Translations under genes and position numbers: made by a program | Origin: Carcharhinus longimanus | Lineage: Eukaryota | DNA: 62,252 bases | Assembly (NCBI GenBank): GCA_030264375.1 | Contig: JASCQW010000190.1 | Coordinates: 21,159,593-21,221,844 of the forward strand | Direction of reading: 5' to 3' | The notes under the pieces: generated by a model | Told to the model about the DNA's origin: nothing | What the model saw: only the letters and a program-made list of their open reading frames with translations | The model's database searches: none | Shown: one piece after another, positions 9,776 to 50,630 of the stretch | How positions within the stretch are numbered: the stretch's first letter is position 1 | Layout of the letters: each line of letters begins with the position of its first letter

Positions 9776-9850
9776 AAAGTTTAAAAATTATTTATTAGTC
9801 ACAAGTAGGCTTACATTAACACTGCAATGAAGTCACTGTGAAAATCCCCT
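9776..9850 (-). mobile_element. V-SINE 3' tail fragment (alternative, Rex1-like tail)
   Basis: TTTATTAGTCACAAGTAGGCTTACATTAACACTGCAATGAAGTCACTGTGAAAATCCCCT is the reverse complement of the tail of the copies at 13628 and 41440. Confidence 0.85.
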
Positions 9851-9970: not shown

Positions 9971-10465
9971 TTTGATCTGATTTTATTATTGTACAATCAT
10001 ATGTATTGGGATACAGTGAAAAGTATTGTTTCTTGCACGCTATACAGACAAAACATACCATTCATAGAGCAAATAGGGGAGAAGGAAAGGAGAGGGTGCG
10101 GGACGTACTGTTACAGTCACAGCTTGGGTAGAGAAAGATCAGCTTAATATATATTGGTTCCATTCAAAAGTCTGATGGAAGCAGGGAAGAAGATGTTCTT
10201 GAGTCGATTGATGTGTGACCTCAGACTTTTGTATCTTTTTCCTGACGGAAGAAAGTGGAATTTTACTGCCCCACCTGCCNNNNNNNNNNGGGCAGGGGGT
10301 GGGTGGGGGGGTCGGTACCATGCAAAGGTCTGTTGACCTCAGGTGGGATTTTCTGGATTTGGGGAGAGCATGGCTCAAAAATCCCACCCTATGTCTGGGG
10401 TGCGTAGGGACCTTGATAACGCTGGCTGCTTTTCTGAGGCAGCGGGACAGTGTAGATGGAGTCAA
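9971..10465 (-). mobile_element. Rex1/Babar LINE 3' fragment interrupted by a MITE
   Basis: Translation SRCLRKAASVIKVPTHP resembles the Rex1 ORF C-terminus. The tail CTTTTCACTGTATCCCAATACATATGA...AATAATAAAATCAGATCAAA matches the Rex1 tails at 45900 and 48480. Confidence 0.8.
10254..10389. mobile_element. About 125-bp MITE
   Basis: GTGGAATTTT...CATGCAAAGGTCTGTTGACCTC...AAAAATCCCACCC; same family as 24897, 49008 and 52479. Confidence 0.75.
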
Positions 10466-11589: not shown

Positions 11590-11872
11590 CACGATGGCAC
11601 AGTGGTTAGGACTGCTGCCACACAGTGCCACAGGTTCAATTCCGGTCTTCGGTCACTATCTGTGAGGAGTCTGCATGTCCTCCCCTGTCTACGTGTGTTT
11701 CCTCCGGGTGTTCCGGTTTTGTCTCACAGTCTGAAAGATGTGCCGGTTAGGTGCTTTGGCAACGTTAAATTCACCCTCAGTGTACCTGAACAGGCACTGC
11801 AGCGTGGCGACTAGGGGATTTTCACTGTAACTTTATTGCAGTGTGAATGTAAACTTACTTGTGACACTAATA
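11590..11872 (+). mobile_element. tRNA-headed V-SINE (HE1 head, alternative tail)
   Basis: A box TGGCACAGTGG, B box GGTTCAATTCC, V domain, tail GGCGACTAGGGGATTTTCACTGTAAC...GTGACACTAATA. Confidence 0.9.
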
Positions 11873-13627: not shown

Positions 13628-13925
13628 CATGGCACAATGGTTAGTATTGCTGCCTCACAACTCCAGGGACCCTGATTCAAACCTGGCTTGGGTCACTGTC
13701 TGTGTGGAGTTTTCACATTCTCCCCATGTCAATGTGGGTTTCCTCCAGGTGCTAAGGTTTCCTCCCACAATCCGAAAGACATGCTGGTTAGGTGTATTGG
13801 CCTTGCTAAATTCTCCCTCAGTGTACCCAAACAGGCGCCAGAGCATGGCGACTAGGGGATTTTCACAGTAACTTCATTGCGCTGTTAATGTGAGCCTGTT
13901 TGTGACTAATAAATAAACTTCTTTA
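13628..13925 (+). mobile_element. V-SINE, alternative tail
   Basis: Full tRNA head, V domain and tail ending TGTGACTAATAAATAAACTT. Confidence 0.9.
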
Positions 13926-15409: not shown

Positions 15410-15690
15410 TAGTTTAAAGTTTATTTATTATTGTCACAAGTAAGGCTTATATTAACACTGCAATGAAGTTACTGTGAAATTCCCCTAGTCGCCTCACTCC
15501 AGCGCCTGTTCAGGTCAATGCACCTAACCAGCACGTCCTTCAGACTGTGGGAGGAAACCAGAGGAAACCCACATAGACACGGGGAGAATGTGCAAACCCC
15601 ACACAGACAGTGACCCAAGCCAGGACTCGAACCCAGGTTTCCGGTGCTGTGAGACAGCAGTGCTAACCACTGTGCCACCGTGCCACCCAC
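15410..15690 (-). mobile_element. V-SINE, alternative tail
   Basis: Head reverse complement CAGTGCTAACCACTGTGCCACCGTGCCACCC; tail AAAGTTTATTTATTATTGTCACAAGTAAGGCTT. Confidence 0.9.
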
Positions 15691-16814: not shown

Positions 16815-17422
16815 TTCATGGAATCGCGCAGTGCAAAAGAGGCCCTTTGGCCCATTGAGTCTGCACCAACACATGTGAAATACCTGACACCCACCTAGTC
16901 CCATCGCCCTGAACTTTAGGATGTGCCACGTGCTCGTCCAGGTACTTTTTAAAGGACGTGTGACAACTCGTCTCTACCACCCTCTCAGACAGCGTGTTCC
17001 AGACTGTCACCACCCTCTGGGTAAACCTCCTGCACTTCATCGTGAACCTATGTCCCCTCATGACTGACCTTTTAACTAAAGGGAATAGCTCCTCTTTATC
17101 CACTCTGTCCATGCCACTCATAATCTTGTACACCGTGATCAGGTCATCCCTCAGTTTTCTCTGCTCCAAAGCAAACAATCAAGGCCTTTCCAACCTCTCT
17201 TCATAACTTAAATGTTCCATCCCAGGCAGCATCCTGGTGAATCTCCTCTGCACCCTCTCCAGTACAATCACATCCTTCCTACAATGTGGTGACCAGAACT
17301 GCATACAGTACTCCAGCTGTGGCCTCACCAAAGTTCTATACGAGTCCAACATGACTTGCCTGCTTTTGTGATCTATACCTCGACTGATAAAGACAAGTGT
17401 CCCATTTGCCTTTTTCACCACC
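16815..17422 (-). mobile_element. CR1 (HER1-like) LINE 3' fragment
   Basis: Translations YRTLVRPQLEYCMQFWSPH...LERVQRRFTRMLPG and FTQRVVTVWNTL. Its tail is shared with HE1 SINEs. Confidence 0.95.
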
Positions 17423-17581
17423 CTACAATCAAATCAACAGCACCGCAGGTTTTTTGCAAGTGACATTTTTTTTGCAACTGCTGATACATATACCTTATCT
17501 TCCTGAAACCGCAAAATGTACATAAAACTGCAACCTCGTTTCACATAATATTGCCTTGCAGCATGCATGCCAGACACTGAC

Positions 17582-17883
17582 CATAGAACCATAGAATCCT
17601 TACAGTACAGAAAGAAGCCATTCGGCTTATCAAGTCTGCACTGACTCTCAGAAAGAGCATTCTGCCCAACCCCTCCTTTCTGCTCAATCCCCACAACCAG
17701 GTGCATTTACCTTGGTCAATCCACCTAACTTGCACATCTTTGCACTGTGGGAGGAAACCAGAACACTTGAAGGAAACCCATGCAGACATTGGAAGAACAT
17801 ATGAATTCCACACAGTCACTCAAGTCTAGAATTGAACCTGGGTCCTTGCGCTGTGAGGTAGCAATGCTAATCATTGTGCCACC
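17582..17883 (-). mobile_element. HE1 SINE (CR1-type tail)
   Basis: Complete head, V domain and tail CATAGAACCATAGAATCCTTACAGTACAGAAAGAAGCCATTCGGC. Confidence 0.9.
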
Positions 17884-18580: not shown

Positions 18581-19030
18581 GGATGGCATGACGGCACACT
18601 GCTTAGCAGTGCTGCCTCACAGCATAAGGGACCCAGGTTCAATTCTGGCCTTGAGTGACTTTCTCCATCTCTGTATGGGTTTTCTCCGGTGCTGTGGTTT
18701 CCTCCCACAATCCAAAGATGTGCCGGTTAGATTGATTGGCCAAGCTGAATTGTCCCTTCATGTCCCAAGATGTAAAGGCTAAAGAAATTAGCAGGGTAAA
18801 TAGGTGGTGTTATGGGCATAGGGTCTTNNNNNNNNNNNNNNNNNNNNNNNNNNNNNNNNNNNNNNNNNNNNNNNNNNNNNNNNNNNNNNNNNNNNNNNNN
18901 NNNNNNNNNNNNNNNNNNNNNNNNNNNTTATGGGCATAGGTCCTTGGAGAGATGCTCTGCCACAGAGTCAATGCAGACTCAATGGGCTGATTGGCCTCCT
19001 TCTGCACTGCAGGGATTCTATAATTCTACC
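18581..19030 (+). mobile_element. HE1 SINE (CR1-type tail), spans a gap
   Basis: Head, V domain and tail GGCCTCCTTCTGCACTGCAGGGATTCTA. Confidence 0.85.
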
Positions 19031-21375: not shown

Positions 21376-21666
21376 GGGCAGCGCAGTCGCACAATGGTTA
21401 GCACTGCTGTCTCACAGCACCAGAGACCTGGGTTTGATTCTTGGCTTGGGTCACTGTCTGTGAGGAGTTTGCACGTTCTCTCCGTGTCTGTGTGGGTTTC
21501 CTCCAGGTGCTCCGGTTTCCTCCCACTAAAGATGTGCAGGTTAGGTGAATTGGTCATGCTAAGTTCTACAGATGGTGAAGTATGGCAACTAGGGAATTTT
21601 CATAGTAACTTCATTGCAGTGTTAATGTAAGCCTACTTGTGACTAATAAATAAATAAACTTTAACT
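21376..21666 (+). mobile_element. V-SINE, alternative tail
   Basis: Head plus tail GCCTACTTGTGACTAATAAATAAATAAACTTTAAC. Confidence 0.9.
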
Positions 21667-24448: not shown

Positions 24449-24769
24449 TCATAGAATCCTACAGTGCAGAAGGAGGCCATTCAGCCCATCGAGGTTACGC
24501 CAAACACAATCCCACCCAGGCCCTATCCCCAATAACCCCATGCATCTACCCTAACTAGTCCCCCTGATACTAAGGGGTAATTTAGCTTGGCCAATCCACC
24601 TAACCTGCATCTTTGGACTGTGGCAGGAAACCGGAGCATCTGGAGGAAACCCACCCAGACATTGGAGAATGTGTAAACTCCACACAGACATTGACTCAAG
24701 TCGGGAATCGAACACAGGTCTCTGGTGCTGTGAGGCAGCAACGCTAACCACTATGCCACCGTGCCACCC
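24449..24769 (-). mobile_element. HE1 SINE nested in the Gypsy 5' UTR
   Basis: Complete copy, CATAGAATCCTACAGTGCAGAAGG...GCCACCGTGCCACCC. Confidence 0.92.
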
Positions 24770-25624: not shown

Positions 25625-25932
25625 GGTAGCACGATGGCACAGCGGTTAGCACTGCTGTCTCACAGCACTGGGGACCCGGGTTCGATTCCCGGCTTGGGTC
25701 ACTGTCCGCACATTCTCCCCATGTCTGTGTGGGTTTCCTCTGGGTGCTCCAGTTTCCTCCCACAGTCCAAAGATTTGCAGGTTAGATGGATAGGCAATGC
25801 TAATTTGCCCCTTGGTGTCAGGGGGACAAGAAAGGGTAAATGCATGGGGTTATGGGAATAGGGTCTGGGTGGAATTATAGTCGTGCAGACTTGATGGGCC
25901 AAATGGCCTCCTTCTGGAAGGATTATATGATT
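25625..25932 (+). mobile_element. HE1 SINE nested in Gypsy gag
   Basis: Head TGGCACAGCGGTTAGC...GGTTCGATTCC with a CR1-type tail. Confidence 0.9.
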
Positions 25933-26148
25933 CTTATATGATATCGGTTTAAGGAGGCTGAGTATTTTTATTGTTACAACAGAAGACATTTGAAAAAGCT
26001 GTGCAGAGCTAACTCAGACTGCAGAGTAATTGATCAAGCAAGATGTTACAGGTACACAATGTGGGAGCACCTGGTACCAGTGATTCTGGTATTCACTTTC
26101 CTTTTAATCTGAAAATGCACAAGCCAGATCCTACTACTTTAACGCATA

Positions 26149-33865: not shown

Positions 33866-34166
33866 GGGTGGCAGGGCGGCACAGTGGTTAGCACTGCTGC
33901 CTCACAACTCCAGGGATCCAGATTCAATTCCCAGCTTGTCTGTGCAAAGTCTGCACATTCTCCCTGTGTCTGTGTGGGCTTCCTCTGGGTGCTCCGGTTT
34001 CTTCCCACAGTCTGAACGACGTGTTGGTTAGGTGTATTAGCCATGCTAAATTCTCTCTCAGTGTACCCAAACAGGTGCCGGAGTGTGGCAACTAGGGCAT
34101 TTTCACAGTAACTTCATTGCAATATTAATATAAGCCTACTTGTGGCACGAATAGATAAACTTAAAC
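33866..34166 (+). mobile_element. V-SINE, alternative tail
   Basis: Complete copy with tail TTTTCACAGTAACTTCATTGC...CCTACTTGTGGCACGAATAGATAAACTTAAAC. Confidence 0.9.
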
Positions 34167-40152: not shown

Positions 40153-40468
40153 GGGGTGGCACGGTGGTTAGCACTGTTCCCTCACAGCACCGGAGACCTG
40201 GGTTCAATTCCCTGCTTGGGTCACTGTCTATATGGAGTTTGCACATTCTCCACGTATCTGCGTGGATTTCCTCCGGGTGTTCTGGTTTCCTCCCACAGTC
40301 AAAAGATGTGCAGGTTAGGTAGACTGGCCATGCTAACTTGCCCCTTAGTGTCAGGGGGACTAGCTAGAGTAAATGCATTAAAGCTATGGGCATAGGGTCT
40401 GGGTGGGATTGTTGGTGTGGACTTGCTGGGCCGTATGGCTGCCTTCTGCACTGTAGGATTCTATGATC
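40153..40468 (+). mobile_element. HE1 SINE (CR1-type tail)
   Basis: Complete copy ending CTGCACTGTAGGATTCTATGAT. Confidence 0.92.
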
Positions 40469-40894
40469 CTGAAATATAAAGTGGGGCCCATGTGATCTTC
40501 TGGAGTAGTTTTGATTGATGAAAGATGTCAGAGAGGGCTTTCTAGATCTTTACCTTGAATTGGCGTGGATTTTGAACCTCTCTCAAGACATTACATGAAT
40601 GTAATGTAGATATTGTGATGCACTCAGTATCCTAACTACATGGGACAGGTTACGTGGACCAGCAAGCCTTCTCCTCTCCCATGATTTTTCATATGTTTGA
40701 GGGCATGTAAATATATATAACTGCTTCTGCCAACCAAACATCAGTTTAACTTTACAACACAATCTTATATATAGTGGAATAAAGAGCCTTTATCAGCAAA
40801 ATTCACATCAAACCTTAAAACTGCATCAGAATTCTGCATTTGACAAACATAGCAATGGGACAAGACAAGGTCTTCAGGTGAAATAATTGTTTGA

Positions 40895-41112: not shown

Positions 41113-41439
41113 AGGTATCCAGGTGTACGCACTGCGTGCCAAACTGAGAGACTACATCATAAAACAAAAGAAGAACGAAGGACAGATTCATCGCTATAGT
41201 GACGACAACTGGAAATGATTTGCTTGAAAAATTAACTTATGCCCATCCTCAAGAAAATTGGAAGTGTGCCTCTGTGGAGGGAGTCATTTTGTGTATGTGT
41301 CCACTGGCAGAAGGCCCTTTACTGCTATCTCAAACTATAACCACTGCTGCGTTTTTACTGTTTGTTTCACTAATAACTTTATTCAAGTGGTGAAATCTCC
41401 CAGTGATTCAGAATTCGCAAACACATCCAAATCCGATTC

Positions 41440-41716
41440 CCAGCACCAGGGACCCAGGTTCGATTCCTGGCTTGGGTCACTGTCTGTTTGGAGTCTGCGC
41501 ATTCTCCCCGTGTCTGCATGGGTTTCTCCCGGCGCTCTGGTTTTCTTCCACAATCCAAAAGACATGCTGGTTAAATGCATTAGCCATGCTAACTTCTCCC
41601 ACAGTGTACCTGAATAGACATCGATGTGTGGCGACTAGGGAATTTTCGCGGCAACTTCATTGCAGTGTGAATGTAAGCCTACTTGTGACACTAATAAATA
41701 AACTTAAACTTTAAAC
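41440..41716 (+). mobile_element. V-SINE, alternative tail, 5' truncated
   Basis: Begins before the B box GGTTCGATTCC; tail GTGACACTAATAAATAAACTTAAACTTTAAAC. Confidence 0.9.
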
Positions 41717-43639: not shown

Positions 43640-43890
43640 ACTGTCTATATGGAGTTTGCACATTCTCCCCGTGTCTGCATGGGTTTCCTCCGGCTGCTTT
43701 GGTTTCCTCCCACAGTCCAAACATGCACAGGTTAGGTGGATTGGCCATGCCAAATTATCCCTTAGTGCCACCAACTAAGGGGGACCAACTAGGGTAAATA
43801 CATGGGGGTTATGGGGATAGGGCCTGGGTGGAATTGTGGTCAGGGCAGACTCGATGGGCTAAGTGGCCTCCTTCTGCACTGTATGATTCA
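43640..43890 (+). mobile_element. HE1 SINE (head in gap)
   Basis: V domain and CR1-type tail. Confidence 0.88.
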
Positions 43891-43959
43891 ATGGTGTTAT
43901 AGAATCATCCCCCCTTACTCCAGTAACTGACCCCGAATTAATAATCCAACACAACCTCC

Positions 43960-44701: not shown

Positions 44702-46200
44702 TCATGCCTGCTTATTATGGTCGCACTCCAGCCATACACTGAGGGAATGGAAGCTTTTCTGTTTATGTACTGTAGTGCCTGCTGCCAGCGAGCTTTGATA
44801 GCCACATGGGCAGTCGATGGAAACCCGAAAATCACAGCAAAGGCCTATACTCTGACGTCCTGGTGTACCTGATCTTTGTTGAAGTTGATGTGATGTGACT
44901 GTGGGCCTTGGCAAAAAGGCCTCTGTGACTTCATGCATGTACTTGTGTGTAGATGCCTGAGAGATCCTGCAGAGGTCCCCGGTGTAACCCTGGAAGGAAC
45001 CAGCAGTGTAGATGTTAAGTGTGGCTATTGCTTTCACAGCCACTGGCAACGGATGCCCTCTGCATCCACATGACACCAACTTGTGCAGAATATGGCAAAT
45101 GTGAGTTACAAGATCAGACAAGACTGCAGGAATGAGATAGAGAATCTGGTAAACTGGTGCAATGACAATAATCTCTCCCGTAATGTCAATAAAGCAAAGG
45201 AGATTGTCATCAACTTCAGGAAGCATAGTGGAGAAGATATCCTTACCTAAAGCAAAGAGGAGAAAGTAGAAATCATTGAGAGCTTCAGGTTTTTAGGTGT
45301 CTAAATCACCAACAACCTATCCTGGTCCCCCCTTGCCATTACTATAGTTAAGAAAGCCCACCAATGCCTCTACTTTCTTCGAAGACTAAGAAAATTTGGA
45401 ATGTCAGCTACAACTCCTGTCAACTTTTACAGATGTACCATAGAAAGCATTCTTTCTAATTGTATCACAGCTTGGTATGGCTTCTGCTCTGCCCAGGACC
45501 GCAAGAAACTACAAAAGGTTATGAATGTAGCCCAATNNNNNNNNNNNNNNNNNNNNNNNNNNNNNNNNNNNNNNNNNNNNNNNNNNNNNNNNNNNNNNNN
45601 NNNNNNNNNNNNNNNNNNNNNNNNNNNNNNNNNNNNNNNNNNNNNNNNNNNNNNNNNNNNNNNNNNNNNNNNNNNNNNNNNNNNNNNNNNNNNNNNNNNN
45701 NNNNNNNNNNNNNNNNNNNNNNNNNNNNNNNNNNNNNNNNNNNNNNNNNNNNNNNNNNNNNNNNNNNNNNNNNNNNNNNNNNNNNNNNNNNNNNNNNNNN
45801 NNNNNNNNNNNNNNNNNNNNNNNNNNNNNNNNNNNNNNNNNNNNNNNNNNNNNNNNNNNNNNNNNNNNNNNNNNNNNNNNNNNNNNNNATATATGTGATA
45901 ATAATAAATCAAATCAAATCAGATTAGATCATTGAGTATGCAGAAATGTTGGCAAAACTGTTTCTCCTGCAGATAAAACATGTGACGTCGGTACACCCTC
46001 ACTGCAGTAAGACACCGACGCACAACATTTCTGTTTTCCTGGACCACCCCGTCCAGAGTGTGCACCGCTTGGCCTTGGTCTTCCAGGTTTTACTCCTGCC
46101 TTTGGTGCGCCAGCCTTCTCCTTCGCAGTTGTCTCCTTCTCCCATTTCTGTCTGCTGTTATGCAGGCATCAATGAATGCAGTCTTCATTTGCTTTTTGAC
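44702..46200 (-). pseudogene. Harbinger (HARBI1-like DDE) transposase remnant split by a Rex1 insertion at about 45113-45925
   Basis: GHPLPVAVKAIATLNIYTAGSFQGYTGDLCRISQASTHKYMHEVTEAF and KSFHSLSVWLECDH (44702-45112). N-terminal RVYRRHMFYLQ lies at about 45960-46000. Confidence 0.85.
45113..45925 (+). mobile_element. Rex1/Babar LINE 3' part
   Basis: NFYRCTIESILSNCITAWYG.CSAQDRKKLQKV with tail AATAATAAATCAAATCAAATC. Confidence 0.9.
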
Positions 46201-47619: not shown

Positions 47620-48532
47620 TCCATACTATGCCCCTTATACACCTATGACTATGTGACCACATTCCCCTCCAAATCGATTTTCACATTTGATGACAACACC
47701 AACGTAGCGGGTCAGATTTCAAACAATGATGAGACAGAGTACAGGAATAAGATAGAGAATCTGGTGAACTGGTACGTCAACAATAATCTCTCCTTCAATG
47801 TCAACAAAATGAAGGAGATTGTCATCAATTTCAGGAAGCATAGAGGAAAACATACCCCTGTCTATGTCAATGAGCATGAAGTAGAAATGGTCGAAAGCTT
47901 CAAGTTTTTAGGTGCCCATATCACCAACAACCCGTCCTGGTCCCCCCATGCCAATACATGCCAAGAAAGTCCATCAATGCCTCTACTTTCTCAGAAAACT
48001 AAGGAAATTTGGCANNNNNNNNNNNNNNNNNNNNNNNNNNNNNNNNNNNNNNNNNNNNNNNNNNNNNNNNNNNNNNNNNNNNNNNNNNNNNNNNNNNNNN
48101 NNNNNNNNNNNNNNNNNNNNNNNNNNNNNNNNNNNNNNNNNNNNNNNNNNNNNNNNNNNNNNNNNNNNNNNNNNNNNNNNNNNNNNNNNNNNNNNNNNNN
48201 NNNNNNNNNNNNNNNNNNNNNNNNNNNNNNNNNNNNNNNNNNNNNNNNNNNNNNNNNNNNNNNNNNNNNNNNNNNNNNNNNNNNNNNNNNNNNNNNNNNN
48301 NNNNNNNNNNNNNNNNNNNNNNNNNNNNNNNNNNNNNNNNNNNNNNNNNNNNNNNNNNNNNNNNNTGATCTTATTGAATGGCGGGGCAGGCTCGAAGGGC
48401 TAGGTGGCCTACTCCTGCTCCTATTTCTTATGTTCTTATGAACAGTATGATTTGTATGTATAGCGCACATGAAACAACACTTTTCGTTGTATCCCAATAA
48501 ATGTGACAATAATAAATCAAATCAAGTCAAAT
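47620..48532 (+). mobile_element. Rex1/Babar LINE (RT to tail), with a CR1 3' end (48366-48440) inserted
   Basis: FDDNTNVAGQISNNDETEYR...NNLSFNVNKMKEIVINFRK...VESFKFLG; tail TGTGACAATAATAAATCAAATCAAG. Confidence 0.9.
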
Positions 48533-50341: not shown

Positions 50342-50630
50342 AAAATCCCTACAGTGCAAAAAGAGGACATTCAGCCCATCCAGCCCGCACCAACAACAAT
50401 CCCATCCAGGTCCTATCCCCGTAACCCCATTATTTAATCCCCCTGACATTAAAGGGCAATCTAGCATGGCCAATCAACCTAATCTGCATATCTTTGGAGT
50501 ATGGGAGGAAACCGGTGCATCAGTAGGAAATCCACGCAGACAGGGGGACAACGTGCAGACCCCACAATCACCTGTGACTGGAATTGAACCCAGGTTCCTG
50601 GTGCTGTGAGGCTAACCATTGTGCCACCGT
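50342..50630 (-). mobile_element. HE1 SINE (CR1-type tail)
   Basis: Complete degenerate copy. Confidence 0.88.

What the first reader, a model, noticed from the sequence alone, without database searches (positions are those of the whole stretch)
11590..11872. V-SINE subfamily that appears to have swapped its CR1 tail for a Rex1/Babar-type tail
Seen: the same tRNA head and V domain occur with two unrelated 3' ends. Type 1 (17582, 18581, 24449, 25625, 40153, 43640, 50342) matches the CR1 tail at 16815, the known HE1/HER1 pair. Type 2 (9776, 11590, 13628, 15410, 21376, 33866, 41440) ends TTTTCAC(A/T)GTA...TACTTGTGACACTAATAAA. This parallels the Rex1 tails in this window, TTTTCACTGTA-TCCCAA-TACATATGA and TGTGACAATAATAAA (9971-10025, 48480-48520). 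Both fold as a TCAC-GTA/TAC-GTGA hairpin, with a longer stem in the SINE. The terminal repeats differ (AAACTT versus AAATC). Inference: partner-LINE switching to a different Rex1/Babar family, a SINE-LINE pairing that is rarely documented.
Basis: partly seen in the sequence, partly recalled or inferred. Interest (0 to 1): 0.7.

Follow-up and report, generated by a model that had tools for sequence, protein, structure and literature searches.

The report
Shark SINE with Rex1-type tail
This is a very abundant short jumping element in a likely shark genome whose front end is shared with a sister element carrying a CR1 retrotransposon tail, but whose own tail resembles that of the genome's main Rex1-type retrotransposon, which likely copies it: a further case of the known habit of such elements changing partners.

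Summary
Two V-SINE families share 187 of 197 head and body bases. Type 1 then ends like a CR1 LINE. Type 2 (40,077 exact tail 24-mers; estimated 120,000-270,000 copies) ends in a tail built like a Rex1-type LINE end. Against the dominant Rex1-type family, 10 of 11 bases match at the stem's 5' foot and 20 of 23 at the 3' end (7 of 20,000 shuffles; 1,425 without the AT-rich end). Both fold with the same basal stem and bulge. The dominant family is the same age (9.3% vs 9.3%) and nests mutually with the SINE, so it is the likely mobiliser; this is inferred, not shown. Against: the SINE hairpin is no more stable than shuffles, a 35-base linker has no source, and the direction of the swap is untested. 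Partner switching and a SINE-Rex1 pair are in print; this scan noted Rex1-tailed 5S SINEs in other genomes. Repbase, Dfam and SINEBase were not checkable.

The parts
11590..11872 (+). Type-2 V-SINE copy (the finding): tRNA-like head with A and B boxes, V domain, 35-base linker, Rex1-type tail; terminal repeat missing
11820..11872 (+). Rex1-type tail of this copy: T-run, basal stem with one bulged U, long upper stem-loop, 3' motif
13628..13920 (+). Type-2 V-SINE copy, full length
15417..15682 (-). Type-2 V-SINE copy of the subfamily with a deletion of about 25 bases after the V domain
21384..21655 (+). Type-2 V-SINE copy
33872..34165 (+). Type-2 V-SINE copy
41438..41710 (+). Type-2 V-SINE copy, head truncated
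9788..9850 (-). Type-2 tail only (5'-truncated copy)
17582..17883 (-). Type-1 V-SINE copy with CR1-type tail
18587..19030 (+). Type-1 V-SINE copy, interrupted by an assembly gap
24449..24763 (-). Type-1 V-SINE copy
25630..25934 (+). Type-1 V-SINE copy
40153..40470 (+). Type-1 V-SINE copy
43640..43893 (+). Type-1 V-SINE copy, head in a gap
50348..50628 (-). Type-1 V-SINE copy
16815..17430 (-). 3' end of a CR1-type LINE (ORF2 C-terminus and tail) whose tail matches type 1
9974..10260 (-). 3' end of a copy of the dominant Rex1-type LINE (ORF2 end, 3' UTR, short hairpin tail)
47660..48523 (+). Copy of the dominant Rex1-type LINE, broken by a gap and by a nested CR1 tail; tail at 48480-48523
45188..45534 (+). 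Further coding fragment of the dominant Rex1-type LINE

Best explanation
Type 2 is a tRNA-headed V-SINE family whose tail is likely derived from a Rex1-type LINE and which was likely copied in trans by the reverse transcriptase of the one dominant Rex1-type family in this genome. Shown: shared head and body with type 1, a distinct tail, sequence and fold similarity to the Rex1-type end, equal age, mutual nesting, and no long target-site duplications. Inferred: Pol III transcription from the A/B boxes; capture of the RNA by the Rex1 ORF2 protein through the basal stem, bulge and 3' motif, with the upper stem-loop ignored; target-primed reverse transcription. Also inferred: an HE1-like CR1-tailed ancestor acquired the tail once by template switching just behind the V domain. 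The donor was probably an older Rex1-type end rather than today's dominant family unchanged, since the linker and upper stem have no counterpart there.
For: Tail match 10 of 11 and 20 of 23 bases in the right order at both 3' termini, with 7 of 20,000 shuffles as good. Same basal stem and single-U bulge, with one pair reversed (T-A vs A-T). The Rex1 loop varies among 66 copies (CCCA 15, GTTA 10, ACTA 8, ACCA 6) while each stem pair is intact in 43-56 of 66. A second Rex family has the same plan with a longer upper part. Of 30 loci with the SINE's last 19 bases behind a non-SINE flank, 21 are the dominant Rex1 family, 6 SINE variants and 3 truncated SINE ends. Of 73 weak hits of a SINE-tail profile, 50 are Rex1 ends; the reversed control gave 4 hits (loci were enriched for Rex1 by design). 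Non-CpG divergence: type 2 9.3% (n=48), Rex1 9.3% (n=28), type 1 10.7% (n=58). Rex1 sits inside type 2 in 4 of 5 junction loci, and type-2 tails sit inside the Rex1 ORF in 2 loci. Duplications of 8 bases or more flank 2 of 37 full-length copies against 1.6% in controls. About 100,000 or more Rex1 copies. In another organism the SINE has C before the T-run, as both Rex families here do.
Against: No LINE with the type-2 tail was found: 0 of 115 distinct flank loci and 0 of 90 non-SINE-flanked strong tails. Published pairs can be nearly identical over about 100 bases (PMC3747384 section 1.4); this pair is not. Without the AT-rich last bases the alignment is not significant (1,425 of 20,000), and the 5' arm is partly implied by pairing with the 3' arm. 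The SINE hairpin is no more stable than shuffles. Only one compensated pair, and no covariation among copies or among the organisms laid. The 35-base linker matches neither the Rex1 3' UTR nor the type-1 tail. Equal age and lack of duplications fit CR1-type machinery equally well: type 1 has 0 of 20, and CR1 also nests in type 2. The Rex1/Babar label rests on domain architecture and recall; a literature search for the link found nothing.
Confidence: 0.55

Rival explanations
1. The tail came from, and was served by, a separate Rex1-type family that is rare, extinct or poorly assembled here and whose end equals the type-2 tail including the 35-base linker.
For: Linker, upper stem and terminal repeat differ from the dominant family. 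Minor Rex families exist and hide behind about 100,000 main-family copies: one with 219 candidates was found only by a side survey. Only the top 138-150 candidates are scored per search.
Against: Negative-flank patterns found only truncated or indel SINE copies. Loci examined from four divergent protein queries: 22 of 22, 26 of 26, 22 of 25 and 23 of 23 were the dominant family, and the other 3 were the minor family. The minor family's tail matches worse. The terminal repeat varies between organisms with the same hairpin. A very rare LINE would have had to drive more than 100,000 SINE copies.
Confidence: 0.25
2. The resemblance to Rex1 is convergent or chance: a hairpin plus an AT-rich end, with the SINE mobilised by CR1, L2 or another LINE through relaxed recognition.
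For: SINE hairpin not above shuffles; alignment not significant without the AT-rich end. CR1 was active in the same period and the insertion signature does not separate the clades.
Against: The 3' 23 bases match Rex1 at 20 positions. Both Rex families share the T-run, the GTA/TAC pair and the TGACA...TAAA end with the SINE. No CR1 or L2 end scored as a repeated class with the tail profile.
Confidence: 0.12
3. The swap ran the other way or from a third form: the Rex1-type tail is old, and the CR1-tailed form is derived or independent.
For: The tail is conserved in several organisms, and it has diverged far from any Rex1 end seen here, which suggests a long history.
Against: Type 1 is slightly more diverged (10.7% vs 9.3%, not tested for significance). 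HE1/HER1 is listed for both sharks and rays (PMC3747384 table).
Confidence: 0.08

Closest known systems
HE1 V-SINE / HER1 LINE of sharks and rays (listed in PMC3747384 Table 1; original papers not held)
   Same: tRNA head plus V domain. Type 1 here has a CR1-type tail as recalled for HE1/HER1, and type 2 shares 187 of 197 head and body bases with type 1.
   Different: Type 2 replaces the CR1-type tail with a 35-base linker and a Rex1-type tail. No HE1 reference sequence was available for direct comparison.
SINE2-5_NV / Rex1-24_NV of the sea anemone (PMC3747384 Table 1)
   Same: A tRNA SINE paired with a Rex1 LINE by a common 3' end.
   Different: Not listed as a V-SINE; invertebrate; sequence not seen. 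Here the match is discontinuous and no exact partner was found.
Salmonid SlmI, HpaI and OS-SINE1 / RSg-1 (PMC3747384 Table 1)
   Same: Several fish SINE bodies sharing one LINE tail. RSg-1 is recalled as possibly Rex1-type; not verified.
   Different: CORE, Deu or no conserved domain; not V-SINEs.
V-SINEs with other partners: SINE2-1_XT / L2, DANA / CR1-3DR-ZfL3, Lun1 / LfR1 (PMC3747384); BivaV-SINE2 / CR1 (PMC4824008); multi-partner HCD SINEs of bivalves (PMC11481361)
   Same: One conserved domain carried by tails from several LINE clades; partner switching as the survival model.
   Different: The word Rex occurs 0 times in the main text of PMC4824008, PMC11481361, PMC5804259, PMC5499810 and PMC6887750. 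Here two tails coexist on 95% identical heads in one genome.
CmiSINE / SacSINE1 / L2-2_CM of the elephant shark (PMC5499810, passages)
   Same: Tail exchange among chondrichthyan SINEs giving access to an active LINE.
   Different: CORE and Deu domains with an L2 tail.

Membership tests
tRNA-derived SINE | [quoted passage not shown] | tested here: met
   Both boxes visible in the majority of 34 full-length copies (box consensus recalled). ARAGORN found no tRNA and Rfam gave only a weak tRNA-like hit, E 2.6.
tRNA-derived SINE | Short, non-coding, dispersed, high copy, ends in a simple repeat | tested here: met
   About 300 bases; 40,077 exact tail 24-mers on both strands; unique flanks.
tRNA-derived SINE | Transcribed by Pol III | not testable with these tools
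   Runs holding it are contigs and RNA only by guess.
V-SINE superfamily | About 80-base V central domain (PMC4824008) | tested here: inconclusive
   A central segment is conserved in three other organisms that lack the tail and fits the V domain as recalled, but no V reference sequence was available to align.
HE1 family | 3' tail shared with the CR1-type LINE HER1 | tested here: not met
   Met by type 1 but not by type 2, whose sequence is unrelated after the shared body. Type 2 is a sister family, not HE1 proper.
SINE-LINE pair (stringent type) with a Rex1-type LINE | 3' end nearly identical to the partner LINE's 3' end | tested here: not met
   Two blocks match (10 of 11, 20 of 23) around an unmatched stretch of about 20 bases; no LINE with the full tail found.
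SINE-LINE pair (stringent type) with a Rex1-type LINE | Shared 3' stem-loop with compensatory changes | tested here: inconclusive
   Same basal stem and bulge, one compensated pair; SINE fold z -1.05, Rex1 z -2.8.
SINE-LINE pair (stringent type) with a Rex1-type LINE | Concurrent activity | tested here: met
   9.3% vs 9.3% divergence; mutual nesting.
SINE-LINE pair (stringent type) with a Rex1-type LINE | Mobilisation of the SINE by the LINE protein | not testable with these tools
   Needs a cell or in vitro assay.
Rex1/Babar clade (for the candidate partner) | ORF2 with endonuclease, RT and C-terminal PF09004 domain; RT groups with named Rex1/Babar elements | tested here: inconclusive
   PF09004 in the dominant family and all three domains in a relative. 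No named Rex1 reference in the tree. The link of PF09004 to Rex1/Babar is recalled; the search for it found 0 papers.
L1- or RTE-mobilised SINE | Long target-site duplications (recalled feature) | tested here: not met
   2 of 37 with 8 bases or more, control 1.6%.

The most novel reading that the evidence does not exclude
A V-SINE of well over 100,000 copies rides the dominant Rex1-type LINE by structural mimicry: it keeps only the basal stem, bulge and 3' motif, with its own upper stem and terminal repeat, while its 95% identical sister rides CR1 in the same genome and period. The SINE-LINE comparison would then define the minimal RNA element that a Rex1 reverse transcriptase reads, and this would be the first V-SINE/Rex1 pairing among the papers I could search.
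Probability: 0.35. Interest if true: 0.5.

Novelty: new variant of a known kind. Interest (0 to 1): 0.33.

Why it matters
If true, it adds Rex1/Babar to the LINE clades that V-SINEs have exploited and gives a clean natural comparison: near-identical SINE bodies with CR1-type and Rex1-type tails, active side by side (63 vs 55 of 135 unselected copies). It also proposes a testable recognition element for Rex1 reverse transcriptases (basal stem plus bulge plus 3' motif, free loop). For annotation, close to half of the V-SINE copies here should not be labelled as CR1-tailed. It does not change the general model, in which tail swapping is already standard.

Tried and rejected
1. Direct genome search with the last 96 bases: the 30 loci returned were SINEs or truncated SINEs; uninformative because SINE copies swamp the list. 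2. Pattern was mis-registered and forced only one mismatch; its 30 loci were SINE variants. 3. Template-jump idea from Rex1 tails directly followed by a type-2 tail: rejected as the main cause. In 4 of 5 loci the SINE's 5' half lies before the Rex1 copy, and at least 17 of 30 analogous CR1 junctions are nested insertions too, many others hidden by gaps. L060 and L074 show no 5' half and L128 could not be judged, so these stay unexplained. 4. A short-hairpin LINE with SINE-type stems: the 100 of 863 matches listed looked like SINE deletion variants (by eye). 5. Different terminal repeat as proof of a different partner: rejected. 6. Covariation among copies: none beyond neutral decay. 7. Divergent Rex1-type proteins on small contigs as partners: no V-SINE on 8 of 8 such loci; likely foreign DNA. 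8. Raw reads of three other organisms cover the central domain and part of the head but not the tail; the organisms are coded, so this says nothing firm about the direction of the swap. 9. Expression: contigs only, RNA by guess; not used. 10. The output was cut, so some of its loci were first examined in later scripts. Papers not held: Ogiwara 1999 and 2002, Kramerov and Vassetzky 2011. No supplements were read; the supplementary pair table of PMC3472496 may list further Rex1 pairs.

Full report
1. Setting. The window lies at G000:C190:21159593-21221844 in a 2.68 Gb assembly. That it is a shark is inferred from the HE1-like SINE and CR1/Rex1 content as recalled; no call names the organism.

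2. Observation. All 14 cited SINE places are present. Majority sequences of the two types agree at 187 of 197 bases through head and central domain and then part. Type 1 runs into a tail that aligns with the LINE end at 16815, preceded by a CR1-like ORF2 C-terminus. Type 2 runs into a 35-base linker and a tail of about 60 bases. Among 135 copies not at the centre of a selected locus, 63 were type 1, 55 type 2 and 17 unclassified, mostly interrupted (the profile was built from type 2). A tail 24-mer occurs exactly 40,077 times, reversed control 0. Exact-match fractions of 4 of 27 and 9 of 26 give about 120,000-270,000 copies. Corrections: 9776 is tail only; the A/T variation is private to the 11590 copy; 11590 lacks the terminal repeat.

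3. Is the tail Rex1-type? A PF09004 search returned 34,972 candidates, and a C-terminal protein query 103,326. The dominant family's tail aligns to the SINE tail in two blocks, 10 of 11 and 20 of 23 identical. 7 of 20,000 dinucleotide shuffles score as well, but 1,425 of 20,000 do when the AT-rich end is left out. Both majority tails fold with the same basal stem and one bulged U, and one pair is reversed. The Rex1 fold beats shuffles (z -2.8); the SINE fold does not (z -1.05), and 2 of 7 window copies adopt it alone. The Rex1 loop varies while its stem is kept. A minor second family keeps the same plan with a longer upper part, so the upper stem-loop looks free in this group (inference). Asking for the SINE's last 19 bases behind a non-SINE flank gave 663 matches; of the first 30 loci, 21 were dominant Rex1, 6 SINE variants and 3 truncated SINE ends. 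A SINE-tail profile over 336 de-duplicated loci (892 kb) gave 73 weak hits, 50 classed as Rex1 ends, against 4 hits on reversed sequence. The loci were enriched for Rex1, but CR1 ends were also plentiful and did not score. The name Rex1/Babar rests on endonuclease + RT + PF09004 in a relative and on recall; the tree has no named references, and one search found no paper linking the domain to Rex.

4. Search for an exact partner. Patterns demanding the tail with a non-SINE flank gave 199, 51, 55, 863 and 872 matches. I examined the flanks of 90 of the 199 and 30 of the 872, giving 115 distinct loci: 35 SINE variants, 72 with otherwise unassigned flanks, 8 nested, inverted or in gaps. Only two pairs shared a flank, both common repeats, and none was a LINE 3' UTR. 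Searches were judged from their listings, which looked like indel variants. Of 304 strong tails in 892 kb, 209 had SINE upstream, 90 did not and 5 lay at locus edges. Nine of the 90 had Rex-like coding upstream: 7 with the LINE's own tail in between and 2 with the SINE tail inserted into the ORF. With four divergent protein queries, the loci examined outside the divergent small contigs were the dominant family in 22 of 22, 26 of 26, 22 of 25 and 23 of 23 cases; the 3 others were the minor family. Limits: the flank patterns miss a LINE with G just before the T-run or with changes in the core; only 138-150 candidates are scored per search; the minor family was itself found only by a side survey. 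A rare or extinct exact partner is therefore not excluded.

5. Timing and insertion. Non-CpG divergence from the majority is 9.3% for type 2 (n=48), 9.3% for the Rex1 3' UTR (n=28) and 10.7% for type 1 (n=58). Rex1 lies inside type 2 in 4 of 5 junction loci, and type-2 tails lie inside the Rex1 ORF in L064 and L416, so their activity overlapped. CR1 also inserted into type 2 (at least 17 of 30 loci), so overlap is not specific to Rex1. Long target-site duplications are essentially absent (2 of 37; type 1 0 of 20), which argues against L1 or RTE machinery (recalled feature) but does not separate Rex1 from CR1 or L2.

6. Other organisms. 20 runs from 11 studies hold part of the element. Contigs of four runs from four coded organisms cover the tail. 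In one (X16) the hairpin is unchanged but the terminal repeat differs and a C precedes the T-run as in both Rex families here. Raw reads of three further organisms cover the central domain and part of the head but not the tail, and one contig run gave nothing. No covariation was seen.

7. Mechanism. Best reading (0.55): Pol III transcripts of type 2 are bound in trans by the ORF2 protein of the dominant Rex1-type family through the basal stem, bulge and 3' motif, and inserted by target-primed reverse transcription. The tail was gained once behind the shared body, probably from an older Rex1-type end. Shown are anatomy, similarity, age, nesting and signature; binding, mobilisation and direction are inferred. 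Rivals: a rare or extinct Rex1-type partner with the exact tail (0.25); convergence with another mobiliser (0.12); reverse direction (0.08). A Rex1-type origin of the tail in any form stands at about 0.85.

8. Known work. PMC3747384 (passages of Table 1 and section 1.4) lists 58 pairs, among them SINE2-5_NV with Rex1-24_NV, HE1 with HER1, a Xenopus V-SINE with L2, and three salmonid SINEs with RSg-1. PMC4824008 and PMC11481361 (abstracts and passages) state that conserved-domain SINEs survive by changing partner LINEs. PMC5499810 (passages) describes tail exchange in the elephant shark. PMC5804259, PMC6887750, PMC5786205 and PMC3531059 (passages) contain no Rex term in the main text; PMC3472496 (passages) likewise, with its pair table in supplements I did not read. 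PMC10468316 (passages) only uses HE1 in masking. Ten searches listed no paper whose title or shown text describes a V-SINE with a Rex1 tail. The original HE1 and V-SINE papers were not held, and Repbase, Dfam and SINEBase could not be queried. A family this abundant is likely to be in automated shark repeat libraries under some label (inference). Earlier notes of this scan report 5S-headed SINEs with Rex1 ends in two other windows of other genomes (unchecked), and none for this sequence.

9. Verdict. A real and very abundant SINE family with a probably Rex1-derived tail: a new variant of a well-known process. The claimed separate partner family was not found and the mechanism is untested. Interest 0.33.

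Noticed in passing
L031/L200 (G000:C1226), L035 (C945), L053 (C2833), L033 (C1478), L039 (C39108), L184 (C19738), L297, L300: Small contigs carry divergent Rex1-type elements, some with long open frames (up to about 1,030 residues), and no V-SINE was found on the 8 loci tested. They may be foreign DNA, for example from a bony fish, in the assembly.
   Followed up: partly
L043 and L442-L461: A second, minor Rex1-type family on chromosome scaffolds (219 candidates) with the same tail plan, a longer upper stem-loop and a different terminal repeat.
   Followed up: yes
window 15417-15682; L004, L010, L017, L026: Type 2 has at least two subfamilies; a deletion of about 25 bases after the V domain goes with two tail differences (16 of 166 copies carry all three).
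   Followed up: partly
L060, L074, L128: A Rex1 3' end directly followed by a truncated type-2 tail; no SINE 5' half seen in L060 and L074, and L128 could not be judged. Template jump or insertion at the tail.
   Followed up: partly
L236-L265; window 48367-48440: CR1-type elements, mostly with assembly gaps upstream, often sit inside type-2 SINEs and Rex1 copies, joined through short matches to their terminal repeat.
   Followed up: partly
L005:1049-1628: Tandem array of the type-2 3' half, three units and the start of a fourth.
   Followed up: no
run X16 (organism F) laid on L013:1495-1660: Same hairpin but an ATT-type terminal repeat and a C before the T-run, so the terminal repeat is species-variable.
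   Followed up: partly
window 17582-17883 and 18587-19030: Type-1 copies differ among themselves in the stretch before the CR1-type hairpin, suggesting several CR1-tailed subfamilies.
   Followed up: no
L081 and L406: Two independent truncated type-2 tails inserted at nearly the same end of another common repeat.
   Followed up: no
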